Sequence record: MF327007
Origin: Shigella phage Sf21
Direction: 5' to 3' (one strand)
DNA length: 64,000 nucleotides
The notes beneath the pieces are model-generated. The model did no database searches. It had not been told where the DNA came from and saw only the letters and a list, made by a program, of their open reading frames with translations. Of this stretch, positions 29,396 through 43,279 are shown in pieces (the first letter of the stretch is position 1; each line of letters begins with the position of its first letter). Made by a program: the position numbers and the translations under genes.

Positions 29396-29869
29396 TTATT
29401 TGAATGATTTGACGTACTGAATAGAGCCTTTGCTATTCACGAAAGCGATTTTACCATTTTTATTATACATGGTAGCAGTACGCTGATAACCATAAGTTTG
29501 TTTACCAGATTGATAACCAACTAATGCAAAATTATCTTCGCCCATTTTATTCTGTTTGGCGCGGATACGTTCATGACCGTGTGCCATAAGAACCTTAGCG
29601 TCGCCAGTTGCAATGGATCTACGAGTTTTTTCATCTTCAACTGTATTAACAAAATCGTCAAATGAATCAAATTTAGCATGAGATTTATTATACAGTTTTC
29701 CATCTACTGCATAATTATATCCCTGTACATCCATCTCAACTTCTGTACCATCATCTAATACAGCAGTGATTTTTTGACCTTTTTTAAATTTCAAAAGATC
29801 AGTAAAAGATTCAGCAATAATTTGAGAATTAATAGCTGCTTCAGTGATAAATTCTTGATATGTTTTCAT
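29396..29869 (-). CDS. Internal protein (capsid-targeted, injected)
   Basis: N-terminal capsid-targeting sequence MKTYQEFITE; basic 157-aa body; adjacent to denV. Confidence 0.7.
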   Translation of the reverse strand: MKTYQEFITEAAINSQIIAESFTDLLKFKKGQKITAVLDDGTEVEMDVQGYNYAVDGKLYNKSHAKFDSFDDFVNTVEDEKTRRSIATGDAKVLMAHGHERIRAKQNKMGEDNFALVGYQSGKQTYGYQRTATMYNKNGKIAFVNSKGSIQYVKSFK

Positions 29870-34051: not shown

Positions 34052-34327
34052 TTATTTCATATTATTGAAATATTCTTCTGCGATTTCGTCGTTATCATGG
34101 TAAACTTTAGAAGACAGTTTAACATAACCTTCTGCCGTGAACATGTTAATCACAACCTTTACAGTATACCACTGACCGTCTTCATTACCCATTACTGCGT
34201 AAGTTTCAAACATCGGATGATCAGGACCGATAACTTTAATATCATTCACTGTACGACCGAAATCTTCTGAAACACATTTCATAAAGAAGTTGAACAGTTC
34301 GCCGTAATTATCCATTTCATTCTCCAA
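34052..34327 (-). CDS. Hypothetical protein (91 aa)
   Basis: ORF about 30 nt downstream of an early promoter. Confidence 0.55.
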   Translation of the reverse strand: MENEMDNYGELFNFFMKCVSEDFGRTVNDIKVIGPDHPMFETYAVMGNEDGQWYTVKVVINMFTAEGYVKLSSKVYHDNDEIAEEYFNNMK

Positions 34328-34358
34328 ATTGTTTTCTGTATCAGTAGTTGATAGTTGT

Positions 34359-34388
34359 ATAGTACCATGGAAGAACAGGGATGTAAAC
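34359..34388 (-). promoter_or_regulatory. Early promoter (GTTTAC -35, 18-bp spacer, TACTAT -10)
   Basis: Same architecture with A/T-rich UP element; drives 34052-34327. Confidence 0.65.
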
Positions 34389-34521
34389 AGTTTTGTGAAA
34401 AAATTTTTTAAAAAGTTTTAGGGAATTCTAGGGTCAGGAGGGACAATTAAAAGGTAGGATAATATATTATAAAGGGTATAAACTAAATGATGCCCAGAGA
34501 GGCCCGGAAAGGCCTAGATAC

Positions 34522-34549
34522 CAAAAAGCCCCAACCTTTCGGCTGGGGC
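34522..34549 (-). terminator. Rho-independent terminator (minus strand) after the internal-protein-like gene
   Basis: Minus strand GCCCCAGCC-GAAA-GGTTGGGGC followed by UUUUU; near-identical to the hairpin at 35077-35104. Confidence 0.7.
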
Positions 34550-34557
34550 TAAGAATG

Positions 34558-35031
34558 TTATTTGATTTGTTTAGCAGACCAAATGCGGTCTTTAATAATT
34601 TTTTGGATGTCTTCAACATATTCAAGAGAGTGAACATGTGGGTTATCTTTGAAACTATAAGCACGAGCTAGCTTTTGGCCTTCAGTTTTGATTATCAAAA
34701 GTTCTTTAAGAATTGCTTCATACCTAGAGATAATTCCTTTAGCAATATTTTTTTCTTGTGCTGCTTTAGGATCAGCCTTAGGAGCAGGTTTACCTGAAGC
34801 CTTTGCAAAAGCAGCTCCAGTAGCAACTAAACTTTTCCAAGCCATACTAACTGCATTCCCTGTAAATCCTTCGGCTTTCATATCACGAGCAAATTGGAAT
34901 CGTGATTCATCGGAAGCATCTTTATAGGAATATTTACCCGCGGCAATGGCAGCTTTTGCAACAGCTTGAATTTCAGTGCTAGATGCTTCATTTAACACCG
35001 CTTCATTTAAAAATTGAGCATATGATTTCAT
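34558..35031 (-). CDS. Internal-protein-like protein (capsid-targeted)
   Basis: N-terminus MKSYAQFLNE resembles the IP capsid-targeting sequence; TATAAATA late promoter upstream; terminator hairpins on both sides. Confidence 0.6.
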   Translation of the reverse strand: MKSYAQFLNEAVLNEASSTEIQAVAKAAIAAGKYSYKDASDESRFQFARDMKAEGFTGNAVSMAWKSLVATGAAFAKASGKPAPKADPKAAQEKNIAKGIISRYEAILKELLIIKTEGQKLARAYSFKDNPHVHSLEYVEDIQKIIKDRIWSAKQIK

Positions 35032-35067
35032 CTTATTTCCTGTTTTAATTCGTGGTTTTAATATACT

Positions 35068-35075
35068 TATTTATA
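35068..35075 (-). promoter_or_regulatory. Late promoter (TATAAATA) for the internal-protein-like gene 34558-35031
   Basis: Exact TATAAATA on the minus strand about 37 nt upstream of the ATG. Confidence 0.55.
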
Positions 35076-35076
35076 C

Positions 35077-35104
35077 TAAAAAGCCCCAACCTTTCGGTCG
35101 GGGC
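35077..35104 (-). terminator. Rho-independent terminator (minus strand) upstream of the internal-protein-like gene
   Basis: Minus strand GCCCCGACC-GAAA-GGTTGGGGC followed by UUUUU. Confidence 0.7.
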
Positions 35105-35105
35105 T

Positions 35106-35414
35106 AAGCCTTGCGGCAACCTTGTCGGGGTTCCACCTGCTAAGGCAAGTGTTTGTACGAAACGCCGGGATTCGAACCCGGTTATTAAGCAGTTGACGCT
35201 ACTCAATATTTTTAAAAGGCCATATCTCGACCATATCCGAACGTTCCGTCAAAAACGCTACTCGGCTTACGGCAAAGATATTTCCTCGAATCGATAATTC
35301 GGTGCGCCGTTTCTGCTGTGATGTAAGAGGGCATCAATAAACGCAAAGATTATTAACGCAATTCCTTACTCAGGGAACATCAGTCCGACGACTTACCGGT
35401 AGCGACCCGGTTTC
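35106..35414 (-). ncRNA. Candidate small stable RNA region with tRNA-like T-arm
   Basis: About 300 nt without a credible ORF; minus strand CCGGG-TTCGAAT-CCCGG T-arm-like element with acceptor-like pairing (CGGAACG/CGTTTCG) but no CCA; bounded by a terminator at 35077-35104. Confidence 0.3.
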
Positions 35415-35765
35415 TTAATATTCTTTTAAAGCATCAATATGTTCACGGCGTTTACGCCATAAATCAATTGCTTCATACGCGGATTCAGCATTTCGAATTG
35501 GACGGCATTTATATAAAGATTTGTGATTTTGATATTGCGTAGATAACGGAATTTTATCTAAAAGGTCTTTACGTTCAAAGTATTCGTAACCATCTAAGCC
35601 AAATGAACGATTTTTGAGAAATTGCCAATGACCAAATTCGTTTTGAATATAAATATAATCCGCGTGTTGATAAAGTAAATTAATTTCACGAAATGAGATA
35701 TGTTTTTCATATTCATTGAAGTAAAATGTTAAATCATGAACTACTAAATAAACATTACTTTTCAT
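35415..35765 (-). CDS. Hypothetical protein (116 aa)
   Basis: ORF immediately downstream of the tRNA array. Confidence 0.55.
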   Translation of the reverse strand: MKSNVYLVVHDLTFYFNEYEKHISFREINLLYQHADYIYIQNEFGHWQFLKNRSFGLDGYEYFERKDLLDKIPLSTQYQNHKSLYKCRPIRNAESAYEAIDLWRKRREHIDALKEY

Positions 35766-35783
35766 ATTTTCCTCACTTATAAT

Positions 35784-35859
35784 TGGTCGAGGCAGTAGGG
35801 ATCGAACCTACGACCCAGGACTTAGAAGGTCCTTGCTCTTCCTTCTGAGCTATGCCCCG
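35784..35859 (-). tRNA. tRNA-Arg (anticodon UCU)
   Basis: Cloverleaf folded by hand from the reverse complement: acceptor CGGGGCA/TGCCTCG, anticodon loop CTTCTAA, T-arm GTAGG-TTCGATC-CCTAC, encoded CCA. Confidence 0.85.
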
Positions 35860-35863
35860 TAAT

Positions 35864-35939
35864 TGGGGTGACCGATGGGAGTCGAACCCATGACTACGAG
35901 AATCACAATCTCGAGTTCTACCAACTGAACTACGGCCAC
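35864..35939 (-). tRNA. tRNA-His (anticodon GUG)
   Basis: Acceptor GTGGCCG/CGGTCAC, anticodon loop TTGTGAT, T-arm ATGGG-TTCGACT-CCCAT, encoded CCA. Confidence 0.75.
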
Positions 35940-36033
35940 ATTAATACCTACTCCAACAATCAAGATGTCTTCACACGAAATTAAGAGAAGAGTGATCAGT
36001 TCAACCCCTATAATCGCGTCAAGTAGATATTAA

Positions 36034-36049
36034 TGTGACAGTTGTCACA
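36034..36049. promoter_or_regulatory. CRP-site-like palindrome TGTGA-N6-TCACA inside the tRNA array
   Basis: TGTGACAGTTGTCACA read directly; perfect half-sites with 6-bp spacer in the 114-nt gap between tRNA-Asn and tRNA-His. Confidence 0.3.
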
Positions 36050-36053
36050 AATT

Positions 36054-36129
36054 TGGCGGACGTGATAGGATTCGAACCTATAACCAATCGCTTAACAGGC
36101 GATCGCTCTGCCATTGAGCTACACATCCA
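36054..36129 (-). tRNA. tRNA-Asn (anticodon GUU)
   Basis: Acceptor GGATGTG/CACGTCC, anticodon loop CTGTTAA, T-arm ATAGG-TTCGAAT-CCTAT, encoded CCA. Confidence 0.75.
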
Positions 36130-36132
36130 AAT

Positions 36133-36219
36133 TGGTGGGGAGTGGTGGAGTCGAACCACCCGAGTCGCAATGACAATGAATTTACAGTCCACACCGCTAC
36201 CTCTACGGGATAACTCCCC
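36133..36219 (-). tRNA. tRNA-Tyr (anticodon GUA), long variable arm
   Basis: Acceptor GGGGAGT/ACTCCCC, anticodon loop CTGTAAA, T-arm GGTGG-TTCGACT-CCACC, 87 nt, encoded CCA. Confidence 0.7.
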
Positions 36220-36232
36220 CTAATTCTTAATT

Positions 36233-36307
36233 TGGTGGCCCTGGGTGGAATTGAACCACCATCTGGCGATTATGAGTCGCTTGCTTGAACCTTCCAGCTA
36301 CAGGGCC
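36233..36307 (-). tRNA. tRNA-Ile/Met type (anticodon CAU)
   Basis: Acceptor GGCCCTG/CAGGGCC, anticodon loop CTCATAA, T-arm GGTGG-TTCAATT-CCACC, encoded CCA. Confidence 0.75.
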
Positions 36308-36308
36308 T

Positions 36309-36384
36309 TGGTGCTGATTGACGGAATCGAACCGCCGACCTTCTCATTACAAGTGAGTTGCTCTACCTACTGAGCTAAATCAGC
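36309..36384 (-). tRNA. tRNA-Thr (anticodon UGU)
   Basis: GCTGATTTAGCTCAGTAGG...CTTGTAA...GGTTCGATTCC...AATCAGCACCA. Confidence 0.88.
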
Positions 36385-36389
36385 AAAAC

Positions 36390-36479
36390 TGGCGGAGGCG
36401 ATAGGATTTGAACCTATGAGTCGCCGGAGCGACTGCCGGTTTTCAAGACCGGTGCATTAAACCACTCTGCCACGCCTCC
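36390..36479 (-). tRNA. tRNA-Ser (anticodon UGA), long variable arm
   Basis: Acceptor GGAGGCG/CGCCTCC, anticodon loop CTTGAAA, 90 nt. Confidence 0.85.
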
Positions 36480-36481
36480 AG

Positions 36482-36555
36482 TCTCCGCGGCAGGATTTGA
36501 ACCTACGACATTCTGCTCCCAAAGCAGACGCTCTACCAAACTGAGCTACACGGAG
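36482..36555 (-). tRNA. tRNA-Pro (anticodon UGG), CCA not encoded
   Basis: Acceptor CTCCGTG/CGCGGAG, anticodon loop TTTGGGA, T-arm GTAGG-TTCAAAT-CCTGC; 3' end followed by CT not CCA. Confidence 0.85.
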
Positions 36556-36565
36556 TAAATTAAAT

Positions 36566-36639
<74 letters not shown>

Positions 36640-36644
36640 AAATT

Positions 36645-36731
36645 TGGTGCGAGAAGTGGGACTCGAACCCACAAGGAAATCATTCCGCAGCATTTTAAGT
36701 GCTGTGCCTTTACCAATTTGACCATTCTCGC
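36645..36731 (-). tRNA. tRNA-Leu (anticodon UAA), long variable arm
   Basis: Acceptor GCGAGAA/TTCTCGC, anticodon loop CTTAAAA, 87 nt, encoded CCA. Confidence 0.88.
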
Positions 36732-36732
36732 G

Positions 36733-36805
36733 CTGGGAATAAAGGACTCGAACCTTTGCATCTAGCAGTCAAAGTGCTATGCCTTACCAACTTGGCTAAT
36801 TCCCA
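36733..36805 (-). tRNA. tRNA-Gln (anticodon UUG), CCA not encoded
   Basis: TGGGAATTAGCCAAGTTGGTAAGGC...CTTTGAC...AAAGGTTCGAGTCCTTTATTCCCAG. Confidence 0.85.
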
Positions 36806-38283: not shown

Positions 38284-38311
38284 TTTATTCTCCTCAGTAG
38301 TTGATAGGGTA

Positions 38312-38341
38312 ATAGTATCACTACCCCATCTAAAAGTAAAC
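38312..38341 (-). promoter_or_regulatory. Early promoter (GTTTAC -35, 18-bp spacer, TACTAT -10)
   Basis: Same architecture; drives 38098-38283. Confidence 0.6.
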
Positions 38342-38575
38342 TTATTTTTTACGAAAAATTGATTTATTTTCTGCTGCCCATTTTTCAATAACTGCAGCAG
38401 GACCAGTAACAACAATTTTATCACCGTAATCTTCTGCGGCGAGTTGACCGAAATTATCTAATGCATCACGAAGAACTCCATGAGGCATTTCACCCATTTT
38501 ATCTTTCTTGCCAGTGTAAATAAACTCAACTTTTACATCAGCAGTTTCAGCAATAAATTCTTGGTAAGTTTTCAT
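38342..38575 (-). CDS. Internal protein (capsid-targeted)
   Basis: MKTYQEFIAE capsid-targeting N-terminus; own early promoter with 18-bp spacer; position just upstream of 57B as for T4 ipI. Confidence 0.65.
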   Translation of the reverse strand: MKTYQEFIAETADVKVEFIYTGKKDKMGEMPHGVLRDALDNFGQLAAEDYGDKIVVTGPAAVIEKWAAENKSIFRKK

Positions 38576-38609
38576 TTTGATTTCCATTTGGTTTTGTTTT
38601 GATAGGGTA

Positions 38610-38639
38610 ATAGTATCACAACTAAAACCCTATGTAAAC
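38610..38639 (-). promoter_or_regulatory. Early promoter (GTTTAC -35, 18-bp spacer, TACTAT -10)
   Basis: Same architecture; drives internal protein gene 38342-38575. Confidence 0.65.
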
Positions 38640-38651
38640 AACTTTGTGAAA

Positions 38652-38909
38652 TTATTTTAAATCTTCTAATCGTTTTTTCATCTTAGAACCATTTTTAGCA
38701 ATTTCTCCTGCATCGGAGCATAATGCTAAAAGTGCTTTAACTTTCGTTTGGTCTCCTTTAAAAGATGAAGGATCTACTGCAGCAGCAAGTTCTTTAATAC
38801 GAGAGAAAAGACGCTCAGCTTCAGCTAAAGCCATTCCAAGCTTTACTTCCATACCGTGGGAAGATTCAGTGATAGTAGTTTTTGTAGTAAACTCTTTGAA
38901 AGTTTTCAT
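38652..38909 (-). CDS. Internal-protein-like protein (capsid-targeted)
   Basis: MKTFKEFTTK N-terminus resembling the capsid-targeting sequence; own early promoter. Confidence 0.6.
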   Translation of the reverse strand: MKTFKEFTTKTTITESSHGMEVKLGMALAEAERLFSRIKELAAAVDPSSFKGDQTKVKALLALCSDAGEIAKNGSKMKKRLEDLK

Positions 38910-38938
38910 TTTATTTTCCTAATTAATTTTGATGAGAT

Positions 38939-38968
38939 AATAGTATCACTACCTCATCAGCATGTAAA
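38939..38968 (-). promoter_or_regulatory. Early promoter (GTTTAC -35, 18-bp spacer, TACTAT -10)
   Basis: Same architecture; drives internal-protein-like gene 38652-38909. Confidence 0.65.
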
Positions 38969-38981
38969 CAACTTTGTGAAA

Positions 38982-39666
<685 letters not shown>

Positions 39667-42402: not shown

Positions 42403-43279
42403 ATGCTCTTTACATTTTTTGATCCGATTGAATATGCGGCCAAAACGGTGAATAAAAACGCGCCGACTATTCCTATGACAGATATTTTTAGAAACTATAA
42501 AGACTATTTTAAACGCGCTCTTGCGGGATACCGCTTACGTACTTATTATATCAAAGGTTCACCACGCCCGGAAGAATTAGCAAATACTATATATGGAAAT
42601 CCGCAGTTGTATTGGGTTTTATTGATGTGTAATGATAATTATGATCCGTATTATGGATGGATTACTTCGCAAGAAGCTGCTTATCAAGCATCTATACAAA
42701 AATACAAAAACGTAGGTGGAGACCAAATAGTATATCATGTGAATGAGAACGGTGAAAAATTTTATAATTTAATATCATACGATGATAATCCATATGTTTG
42801 GTATGACAAAGGCGATAAAGCTAGAAAATATCTATATCAAAGGTTCACCACGCCCGGAAGAATTAGCAAATACTATATATGGAAATCCGCAGTTGTATTG
42901 GGTTTTATTGATGTGTAATGATAATTATGATCCGTATTATGGATGGATTACTTCGCAAGAAGCTGCTTATCAAGCATCTATACAAAAATACAAAAACGTA
43001 GGTGGAGACCAAATAGTATATCATGTGAATGAGAACGGTGAAAAATTTTATAATTTAATATCATACGATGATAATCCATATGTTTGGTATGACAAAGGCG
43101 ATAAAGCTAGAAAATATCCTCAATATGAAGGAGCACTTGCTGCGGTCGATACGTATGAAGCTGCTGTTCTTGAAAATGAAAAACTTCGTCAAATAAAAAT
43201 AATAGCAAAATCAGACATCAATTCATTTATGAACGACCTTATACGTATAATGGAGAAATCTTATGGAAATGATAAGTAA
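42403..43279 (+). pseudogene. 53: Baseplate wedge gene 53 disrupted by a 286-bp internal tandem duplication (frameshift)
   Basis: ATG at 42403 with AGGAGGG SD and TATAAATA late promoter; frame stops at 42918 inside the second repeat copy; 42782-43279 ORF carries the same peptide block and the C-terminus overlapping gene 5; removing one copy gives a 196-aa ORF. Confidence 0.85.
42547..43118. repeat. Perfect tandem duplication, 2 x 286 bp (42547-42832 and 42833-43118)
   Basis: Base-for-base identity by direct comparison; period 286 is not a multiple of 3. Confidence 0.95.

What the first reader, a model, noticed from the sequence alone, without database searches (positions are those of the whole stretch)
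34522..35104. Internal-protein-like gene bracketed by near-identical terminator repeats
The hairpin terminators at 34528-34549 and 35083-35104 differ at only two positions over about 30 bp (AAAAAGCCCCAACCTTTCGG(C/T)(T/C)GGGGCTAAG) and flank the single ORF 34558-35031 with its TATAAATA late promoter. Direct repeats around one promoter-gene-terminator unit look like a swappable cassette, which could explain how internal-protein genes are exchanged between T-even phages.
Basis: seen in the sequence. Interest (0 to 1): 0.45.

Follow-up and report, generated by a model that had tools for sequence, protein, structure and literature searches.

The report
Repeat-bounded late-gene cassette in T4-like phage
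A T4-like phage carries a small self-contained gene unit (late promoter, gene for a probable injected head protein, terminator) inserted just after the terminator of its tRNA/small-RNA operon and ending in a copy of that terminator; related phages have zero, one or two such units with junctions in the repeat, a known style of phage gene shuffling at a site not previously described.

Summary
Two 36-nt direct repeats (33/36 identical; 34518-34553 and 35073-35108) lie 555 bp apart. They are the only copies in the window and in the closest complete genome, phage teqskov (165 kb). On the minus strand each is a 10-bp GAAA-tetraloop hairpin plus U5 (about -20 kcal/mol). The upstream copy terminates the tRNA-rnaD-rnaC unit. 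The downstream copy ends a unit made of TATAAATA (35075-35068) and a 157-aa ORF (35031-34558). The ORF's N-terminus (MKSYAQFLNE|A) matches the T4 capsid-targeting sequence.

Comparative data support the cassette reading. T4, T2 and PST have an empty site with one terminator and hybrid flanks. Other Tequatroviruses carry A, A+B or B alone, with junctions inside the repeat. Mosigviruses use a variant hairpin fused to TATAAATA, again repeated at cassette borders, with different and reordered cargo. Allele replacement is modular: identity is 98-100% through the terminator, 48-80% across A, then 95-100% again.

The closest known systems are the PeSL/PmSL promoter-stem-loop cassettes and the polymorphic T-even internal-protein loci. 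This one uses a late promoter, is confined to one locus, and lies outside the two recognised IP loci. Packaging of the protein, its function and repeat-driven recombination are inferred, not shown.

The parts
35073..35108 (-). Repeat copy 1. Intrinsic terminator of the tRNA-rnaD-rnaC transcription unit (hairpin 35105-35082, U-tract 35082-35078). Its last three bases (TAT) overlap the late promoter.
   Evidence: The same sequence follows rnaC in T4 and is annotated 'terminator' in Aplg8 and G50.
35068..35075 (-). TATAAATA, the T4 late-promoter consensus. It begins 3 nt after the U-tract of copy 1 and lies 37 nt upstream of the ATG.
   Evidence: Read from the sequence. Consensus as given in PMC1524935. 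Conserved in relatives.
34558..35031 (-). Cargo gene A. 157 aa, basic (pI 9.5). The N-terminus MKSYAQFLNE|AVLNE|A resembles the T4 capsid-targeting sequence with L-x-E protease-type sites. phrog_2280, no assigned function.
   Evidence: All-helical AF2 model with no fold match.
34518..34553 (-). Repeat copy 2. Intrinsic terminator of the cassette (hairpin 34550-34527, U-tract 34527-34523). It insulates the downstream e.8 early promoter.
35156..35419 (-). Small stable RNAs rnaC (about 35156-35294) and rnaD (about 35301-35419). This is the 3' end of the tRNA operon, whose terminator is copy 1.
   Evidence: Placed by homology to the T4 and Aplg8 annotations. Rfam has no matching family.
34052..34387 (-). 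Right-hand conserved flank: early-promoter-like site (34387-34359) and gene e.8 (34315-34052).
   Evidence: Conserved in all allelic states.

Best explanation
The window is a Tequatrovirus genome; the closest record is phage teqskov.

Anatomy. Transcription of the tRNA-rnaD-rnaC unit ends at a strong intrinsic terminator, repeat copy 1. Directly behind its U-tract sits a late promoter that drives a 157-aa gene. A second, near-identical copy of the same terminator ends that transcript before the e.8 early promoter. The 555-bp unit (late promoter, gene, terminator) is therefore an autonomous, insulated cassette bounded by 36-bp direct repeats.

Protein (inferred). The protein carries a capsid-targeting-type N-terminus. 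It is most likely packed into the prohead core, trimmed by the prohead protease after Glu10 (possibly Glu15), and injected with the DNA. By analogy with IPI, IPII and IPIII, it would counter a host defence.

Evolution. The rnaC-e.8 interval is a small hyperplastic array. Homologous recombination between the repeated terminator (or terminator plus late promoter plus leader plus CTS) modules deletes, adds or replaces whole cassettes. In Tequatrovirus this gives the observed alleles: empty, A, A+B and B. In Mosigvirus it gives reordered cargo.

Shown here: the anatomy, the uniqueness of the repeat, the allelic series, and breakpoints at the repeat. Inferred: terminator and promoter activity, packaging and function of the protein, and a causal role of the repeats, including any circular intermediate.
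For: Repeat and hairpins.

Empty site in T4 with a single terminator and hybrid flanks. PST is also empty.

A+B arrays whose middle junction is the same terminator (G50, L005, L011, L007, SF2-1, ChristianSchoenbein).

B-only allele (P922) joined directly to the rnaC terminator.

A spread sample of 60 of 745 matching records gave 41 that cover both flanks: 17 A, 14 A+B, 8 empty, 2 B.

The 36-mer occurs at 1 place (T4, T2) or 2 places per record in most listed Tequatrovirus rows, 3 in two of them.

Modular allele replacement: in G50 versus L007, identity is 98-100% up to and through terminator 1, 48-80% across promoter plus A, and 95-100% from the A 3' end and middle terminator through B and e.8.

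Mosigvirus loci use GGCCCTTCCGAAAGGTTGGGCC plus TATAAATA. There are two copies per locus, only inside the rnaC-e.8 interval, bounding [184-aa DUF7338] or [A+184]. Cargo order differs between loci ([184][C] versus [A][184]). Gene A of L010 and gene C of L009 share an identical terminator-promoter-leader-CTS and then diverge.

The CTS-like motif is rare: 5 of 1562 candidate starts in the whole genome, 3 of them at the classical IP loci.

Precedents: PeSL/PmSL cassettes and mini-circles (PMC2839356, PMC4122927). T4 forms deletions and amplifications between 6-10-bp microhomologies (PMC9391042). Ip1, Ip2 and Ip3 each inhibit a distinct GmrSD enzyme (PMC12373910).
Against: No experiment here shows termination, late transcription, packaging or recombination.

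All alleles could descend from one ancestral A+B array by deletions, combined with ordinary homologous exchange in the conserved flanks. In that case the repeats would be deletion hot-spots or footprints rather than vehicles of gain.

The reciprocal product (tandem A-A) was not seen: 509 places in 509 records.

The B cassette ends in a different hairpin (CCCTATC...GATAGGG) that shares only GGGCTTTTTGGTATCTAGG with the repeat. A+B to A (or the reverse) therefore needs a shorter homology.

Gene A has no annotation as a virion protein. PHROGs, Pfam, NCBIfam and PDB give nothing. In two phages it is frameshifted in an A-run, so it is dispensable.
Confidence: 0.75

Rival explanations
1. Footprint only. 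The terminator was duplicated once, when a moron-like promoter-gene-terminator unit entered at the rnaC terminator. Today's polymorphism comes from occasional repeat-mediated deletion plus ordinary homologous recombination in the conserved flanks (rnaC, e.8) during co-infection. The repeats do not serve as exchange points for gaining or swapping cargo.
For: The flanks are 93-99% identical among Tequatroviruses, so whole alleles can move by flank recombination. No A-A duplication product was seen. The empty, A and B states are all reachable from A+B by deletion. T4 readily deletes between short repeats (PMC9391042).
Against: In G50 versus L007 the left boundary of the divergent A allele falls at the terminator itself, not in the flank, and the right boundary falls at the A 3' end and middle terminator. 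In Mosigviruses the same terminator-promoter-leader-CTS module precedes different genes, and the cargo order is permuted. Deletion alone cannot produce either pattern.
Confidence: 0.2
2. Functional convergence. The two hairpins are alike because this sequence is simply an optimal terminator for the phage. Each was selected independently, with no duplication or recombination history.
For: GC-rich tetraloop hairpins followed by T-runs are common in the genome: 24 strong candidates were found.
Against: None of the other 22 strong hairpins shares the sequence. The genome has no third copy even at 7 mismatches in 30. The identity extends to non-structural bases (TTAG before the stem, the loop, GTAT after the U-tract). 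The empty-site genomes have exactly one copy with hybrid flanks.
Confidence: 0.02
3. The cargo is not an internal (packaged, injected) protein. The MK(S/T)Y..FL.E start is shared ancestry of a leader or translation-initiation module, and the protein acts inside the infected cell late in infection.
For: No source annotates it as a virion protein, and phrog_2280 is 'unknown function'. The leader-plus-start module recombines independently of the gene body. No proteomic evidence was found.
Against: The motif matches the T4 CTS in 6 of 10 positions, and the L/I-x-E cleavage context is kept in A, B and C. It is rare in the genome and otherwise found at the IP loci. The protein is basic like IPII and IPIII and has a late promoter, as prohead components do.
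Confidence: 0.25

Closest known systems
PeSL / PmSL mobile regulatory cassettes of T4-type phages (Arbiol et al. 2010, PMC2839356; Comeau et al. 2014, PMC4122927)
   Same: A composite of a stem-loop terminator and a promoter sits in intergenic spaces of a hyperplastic region. Copies flank small non-essential ORFs. Related genomes differ by insertion, deletion or replacement with one element left at the empty site. The proposed mechanism is homologous recombination between neighbouring elements.
   Different: The promoter here is the late type (TATAAATA), not sigma-70-like early or MotA middle. In Tequatrovirus the repeated part is mainly the terminator; only 3 nt of the promoter lie within it. 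The element is not a dispersed genome-wide family: it has two copies confined to one locus. Mini-circles were not tested.
Polymorphic internal-protein loci of T-even phages (Repoila et al. 1994, as described in PMC2839356 and PMC12373910)
   Same: Variable sets of small genes share only the N-terminal capsid-targeting leader. They sit in short hypervariable segments and are bracketed by repeated regulatory elements.
   Different: The literature describes two loci (57B-ipI-trna.4 and denV-ipII-ipIII-e) with early-promoter-based, AT-rich stem-loops, and states that IP genes are absent elsewhere. This locus lies between rnaC and e.8, uses a GC-rich terminator and a late promoter, and its proteins (phrog_2280) are annotated only as hypothetical. 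I could not read Repoila 1994 or Comeau 2007 directly.
Morons of lambdoid phages (promoter-ORF-terminator insertions; concept cited in PMC1524935)
   Same: A single ORF with its own promoter and its own terminator is inserted between two genes that are adjacent in relatives.
   Different: Morons are typically expressed from the repressed prophage and are not bounded by direct repeats of a resident terminator. This one sits in a virulent phage, is late-expressed and is repeat-bounded.
T4 internal proteins IPI, IPII, IPIII
   Same: N-terminal MKTYQEFIAE-type leader ending in L/I-x-E, small basic protein, dispensable, late promoter.
   Different: No sequence similarity beyond the leader. Packaging, injection and an anti-restriction role are untested.

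Membership tests
Intrinsic (rho-independent) terminator | GC-rich hairpin immediately followed by a U-tract on the transcribed strand | tested here: met
   Both copies have a 10-bp stem (7 G-C pairs), a GAAA loop and then TTTTT. Free energy is -20.3 and -20.8 kcal/mol, z -3.6 and -3.9. They are oriented with the genes. There is no T-run on the other strand.
Intrinsic (rho-independent) terminator | Transcripts actually end there | not testable with these tools
   Needs term-seq or Northern data. The T4 homolog lies at the end of the tRNA-rnaC unit.
PeSL-type regulatory cassette | Composite stem-loop terminator plus promoter in one intergenic element | tested here: met
   The hairpin and U-tract are followed after 2 nt by TATAAATA. 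In Mosigvirus loci the whole composite GGCCCTTCCGAAAGGTTGGGCC-T5-7-G-TATAAATA is repeated.
PeSL-type regulatory cassette | Promoter is an early, sigma-70-like one (TTGACA-N17-TATAAT or TTTACW-N17-TAYWAT) | tested here: not met
   There is no early-type promoter between copy 1 and the ATG; the only match is the late consensus. It therefore works like a PeSL but is not a PeSL sensu stricto.
PeSL-type regulatory cassette | Many dispersed copies across the hyperplastic regions of the genome | tested here: not met
   There are only two copies in 165 kb, even at 7 mismatches in 30. Most listed related records have 1-2 places, two have 3.
PeSL-type regulatory cassette | Association with indels or replacements between close relatives, with a single element at the empty site | tested here: met
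   Empty, A, A+B and B alleles have junctions in the element. Modular identity profile.
PeSL-type regulatory cassette | Formation of cassette mini-circles by recombination between flanking elements | not testable with these tools
   Requires inverse PCR on infected cells or virions.
T4-type internal (CTS-bearing) head protein | N-terminal capsid-targeting sequence of about 10 residues resembling MKTYQEFIAE | tested here: met
   MKSYAQFLNE is identical at 6 of 10 positions and conservative at others. The motif was found at only 5 of 1562 candidate starts genome-wide.
T4-type internal (CTS-bearing) head protein | Prohead-protease (gp21) cleavage context L/I-x-E at the end of the leader | tested here: met
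   LNE at residues 8-10 and again at 13-15. Cleavage itself is untested.
T4-type internal (CTS-bearing) head protein | Present in the mature head and injected with the DNA | not testable with these tools
   No proteomic report was found in the searches run.
T4-type internal (CTS-bearing) head protein | Sequence homology to a named IP family | tested here: not met
   There is no similarity to IPI, IPII or IPIII beyond the leader. It belongs to phrog_2280 'unknown function', whereas the window's other IP-like genes hit 'internal virion protein' PHROGs.
Moron | ORF with its own promoter and terminator, inserted between genes that are adjacent in relatives | tested here: met

The most novel reading that the evidence does not exclude
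The rnaC-e.8 interval is a third, so far unrecognised internal-protein locus of T-even phages. On this reading it is organised as an integron-like array. Terminator plus late-promoter plus leader plus CTS modules ('late-promoter stem-loops') act as the recombination joints through which cassettes are captured, lost and reordered, possibly via circular intermediates. The phrog_2280 proteins (A, B, C) would then be a new diversifying family of injected anti-defence factors, for example inhibitors of further GmrSD-type restriction enzymes.
Probability: 0.2. Interest if true: 0.6.

Novelty: new variant of a known kind. Interest (0 to 1): 0.4.

Why it matters
Internal proteins are the only T-even accessory proteins delivered with the DNA. 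The three T4 ones were recently shown each to disarm a different GmrSD restriction enzyme (PMC12373910). A widespread, unannotated, CTS-bearing family would be an obvious set of candidates for further injected anti-defence factors. Its cassette A matched at 80% coverage or more in 466 phage records, and it sits in a small locus that varies between otherwise near-identical phages. Its presence or absence could contribute to host-range differences among therapeutic T4-like phages. Mechanistically, the locus offers a clean natural test of repeat-mediated cassette gain and loss: 36-bp repeats, a 555-bp unit, four natural alleles. It would extend the PeSL idea to late-transcribed genes. The general principle is already established, so this refines known biology rather than overturning it.

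Tried and rejected
1. Cargo function. Pfam, NCBIfam and PDB sequence searches gave nothing. PHROGs gave only phrog_2280 'unknown'. The 5.8-billion-protein search returned 14 relatives, all hypothetical. An AF2 model (pLDDT 77, all-helical, two domains) had no significant Foldseek match in PDB, and in BFVD matched only close homologs of itself.

2. Rfam. It recognised the tRNAs but has no family matching rnaC or rnaD, and nothing at the repeat.

3. Junction-specific BLAST counts of allele frequencies. The tool joins pieces up to about 558 bp apart, so the 'empty junction' count (356) is inflated by A-only loci. I used those numbers only as bounds and relied on the spread sample.

4. My first regex terminator finder returned nothing. 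I replaced it with the tool scan and an RNAfold-based scan.

6. Literature. Repoila 1994 is not held. The supplement of Comeau 2014 is not held. A search on Ip7-Ip10 names returned only irrelevant papers. The 'RB32ORF132c' search found nothing relevant.

7. Rejected ideas. Chance repeat: rejected. Bidirectional terminator: rejected, because there is no T-run on the plus strand. A dispersed repeat family: rejected.

Full report
**1. What is in the sequence**

The window is a Tequatrovirus genome segment. Over window 34052-35400 it is 99.8% identical to Escherichia phage teqskov, MN895437, and the cassette itself is 100% identical. All genes around the finding are on the minus strand.

In transcription order (high to low coordinates) the region contains:
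- eleven tRNA genes, 36805-35784;
- a 116-aa ORF, 35765-35415 (phrog_3355);
- the small stable RNAs rnaD and rnaC, about 35419-35156, placed by homology to the T4 and Aplg8 annotations;
- repeat copy 1, 35108-35073;
- TATAAATA, 35075-35068;
- the 157-aa ORF, 35031-34558;
- repeat copy 2, 34553-34518;
- an early-promoter-like site, 34387-34359, and gene e.8, 34315-34052.

**2. Checking the observation**

Nothing else matches at up to 3 mismatches, and no shuffle of 100 gave two matches. The full repeat is 36 nt, 33/36 identical, with a 555-bp period.

I fetched the remaining 101 kb of teqskov and scanned the whole genome. No third copy exists even at 7 substitutions in a 30-mer. None of the other 22 strong hairpin-plus-T5 sites shares the sequence.

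On the transcribed strand both copies form a 10-bp stem with a GAAA tetraloop followed by U5. Free energies are -20.3 and -20.8 kcal/mol, with z about -3.6 and -3.9. The two internal differences (GA versus AG) exchange a G.U and an A-U pair against the invariant GGUUGGGG arm, so pairing is kept. The plus strand has no T-run after the hairpin, so the element is unidirectional.

**3. What the two copies are**

In T4 the same sequence occurs once. It lies 48 nt after the annotated 3' end of rnaC and 207 nt before e.8. Copy 1 is therefore the resident terminator of the tRNA-rnaD-rnaC unit, and copy 2 belongs to the inserted unit.

The T4 site reads rnaC-trailer | TTAGCCCCGACCGAAAGGTTGGGGCTTTTTGGTAT | CTAAGCCTTTCC... 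This is the left flank of the window's copy 1 joined to the right flank of copy 2. It is exactly what one crossover between the repeats would leave, or equivalently the target before an insertion.

**4. Comparative survey**

The locus is polymorphic.

- *G50* has two units in tandem. A (157 aa) is followed by the same terminator, then B (187 aa, MKTYAEFLTEAAKLPSE...), which has an AATAAATA box and a different hairpin. After that hairpin the sequence rejoins the common e.8-side flank at GGGCTTTTTGGTATCTAGG.
- *P922* has B alone, joined directly to the rnaC terminator.
- *T4, T2, RB7 and PST* are empty.

A spread sample of 60 of 745 matching records contained 41 that cover both flanks: 17 A, 14 A+B, 8 empty, 2 B. 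Cassette A matched at 80% coverage or more in 466 records, always as a single copy. The 36-mer occurs at 1 place in T4 and T2 and 2 in most other listed Tequatrovirus records, 3 in two of them. Junction-specific queries gave 383 records with an intact rnaC|T|A-leader junction and 53 with rnaC|T|B-leader. The empty-junction count is unreliable because the tool joins pieces.

**5. Modularity**

Aligning the whole interval of G50 and L007 (both A+B) gives three zones:
- 98-100% identity up to and through terminator 1;
- 48-80% across the A promoter, leader and most of the ORF;
- 95-100% from the last ~40 nt of A, through the middle terminator, B and e.8.

One cassette has therefore been replaced by a diverged allele while its neighbours stayed the same, and the left boundary is at the repeat.

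L004 carries the two terminator variants in the opposite order from the window. In ES12 the inner part of the downstream hairpin is inverted. Both are signs of ongoing exchange or template switching within the palindrome.

**6. Mosigvirus-type loci**

These are L008-L013, L015, L020 and L023. They use a variant hairpin, GGCCCTTCCGAAAGGTTGGGCC, usually fused to TATAAATA. In every 8-kb locus it occurs only inside the rnaC-e.8 interval, twice in the five IMG/VR loci L008-L010, L012 and L013, and once in L015 and L020 (L023's hairpin is more diverged and L011 is a Tequatrovirus-type locus).

The two copies bound [184-aa DUF7338 membrane protein] in L009 and L013, and [A + 184-aa] in L010 and L012. 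The gene order is permuted: [184][C] versus [A][184].

Gene A of L010 and the 205-aa gene C of L009 share an identical terminator, promoter, leader and first 16 codons, and then diverge. Gene A of L012 and the 184-aa gene of L009 share the same leader. The exchangeable joint is therefore the composite of terminator, late promoter, leader and CTS.

L006, a Tequatrovirus, has a Mosigvirus-type leader and A N-terminus. ChristianSchoenbein, a Mosigvirus, has a B cassette and e.8 that are 93-95% identical to G50 but an A that is only 78% identical.

**7. The cargo**

Proteins A, B and C all fall in phrog_2280 (unknown function). A and C are 26% identical over their full length (E 5e-9). B and C are weaker (E 0.002).

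They share no similarity with IPI, IPII or IPIII beyond the leader. Their starts (MKSYAQFLNE|A, MKTYAEFLTE|A, MKTYNEFLNE|S) follow the T4 capsid-targeting pattern MKTYQEFIAE|A, including the L/I-x-E context. They are basic, with pI 9.3-9.6.

A CTS-type regular expression hits 5 of 1562 candidate starts in the whole genome: the focal ORF, three ORFs at the classical IP loci, and one 54-aa ORF next to the primase gene.

No domain, structure or fold match gives a function. In ECO07P3 and SF2-1, gene A is frameshifted in its A7 run, which shows it is dispensable.

**8. Mechanism proposed**

*Shown.* The unit is an autonomous promoter-gene-terminator module bounded by direct repeats of the resident terminator. 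The repeat is unique to this locus. Four alleles have junctions in the repeat. Allele replacement is modular. Mosigviruses show an equivalent architecture with different cargo.

*Inferred.* Copy 1 stops the tRNA operon. gp55-type late transcription starts after TATAAATA and stops at copy 2, which shields the e.8 early promoter. The protein enters the prohead through its CTS, is trimmed, and is injected as an anti-defence factor. Homologous recombination between the repeats (36 bp, against the 6-10 bp that suffice in T4; PMC9391042) deletes the cassette and, through circular or intermolecular intermediates, adds or swaps it.

*Main rival.* The repeats are only a footprint and a deletion hot-spot, and alleles move by recombination in the flanks. 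The breakpoint positions and the permuted Mosigvirus arrays argue against this as the whole story, but they do not exclude it.

**9. Relation to what is known**

Arbiol et al. 2010 and Comeau et al. 2014 described PeSLs (stem-loop plus early promoter) and PmSLs (middle promoter). These flank variable ORFs in T4-type phages, leave a single element at empty sites and form mini-circles. They also note that Repoila et al. [quoted passage not shown]

The present element works the same way but fails two defining PeSL features that I tested: it lacks the early promoter class, and it is not a dispersed multicopy family. It sits at a third site, between the two classical loci. The Krisch-lab annotation of PST names IPs only at the classical loci, and PST is empty at this site. 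The RB32/RB51 and all other annotations seen here call gene A hypothetical.

I could not read Repoila 1994 or Comeau 2007, so prior description of this locus cannot be fully excluded.

**10. Verdict**

The finding is a new variant of a known kind of phage modular-shuffling element and a probable third internal-protein locus. Interest is moderate: it offers testable candidates for injected anti-defence proteins and a clean system for repeat-mediated cassette turnover, but no new principle.

Noticed in passing
window 42547-43118: A perfect tandem duplication of 286 nt (2 x 286, 100% identical) lies inside baseplate gene 53. Because 286 is not a multiple of 3, it splits the gene into two overlapping ORFs (42403-42918 and 42782-43279). 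All eight listed best database relatives span 815 bp instead of 1101, so none of them carries the duplication. It is either an assembly artefact or a very recent segmental duplication in an essential gene.
   Followed up: partly
L019 (phage ES12) 4061-4082: The downstream terminator copy has its inner stem and loop inverted relative to the usual form (GCCCC-AACCTTTTGGTC-GGGGC versus GCCCC-GACCAAAAGGTT-GGGGC). This suggests template switching or inversion within the quasi-palindrome.
   Followed up: no
window 34748-34754; L021 and L022: Gene A contains an A7 run. In phages ECO07P3 and SF2-1 the run is one A longer and the ORF is truncated to 97 aa (...QEKKYC). This could be pseudogenisation, phase variation or homopolymer sequencing error.
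   Followed up: no
window 29396-29869, 38342-38575, 38652-38909: Three further CTS-bearing ORFs lie at the classical IP loci. One is a 157-aa protein (phrog_3155, DUF7412) with a TATAAATA promoter near gene e. The others are a 77-aa IpVI-like and an 85-aa IpV-like protein between 57B and trna.4. The latter two are embedded in repeated early-promoter elements at 38299-38369, 38597-38667 and 38927-38997.
   Followed up: partly
L016 (teqskov) 25-189: A 54-aa ORF next to the primase gene starts MKTFKEFIKED..., a CTS-like N-terminus outside any IP locus. The record annotates it oddly as 'major capsid domain-containing protein'.
   Followed up: no
window 35415-36805: The tRNA region differs from T4. 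It has 11 tRNAs (His, Asn, Tyr and Met are extra; Ile is absent) and no segB homing endonuclease. A 116-aa ORF (phrog_3355) lies between tRNA-Arg and rnaD, where T4 has none. L006 carries both segB and this ORF.
   Followed up: no
L004 561-590 and 1116-1145: This IMG/VR relative carries the two terminator variants in the opposite order from the window: CCAGCC upstream and CCGACC downstream. This is compatible with exchange or gene conversion between the copies.
   Followed up: no
L008 3777-3920: A Mosigvirus-type locus in which the 184-aa DUF7338 gene is reduced to a 5-codon remnant (MKLLK*), while its flanking terminators remain. This is a decayed cassette.
   Followed up: no
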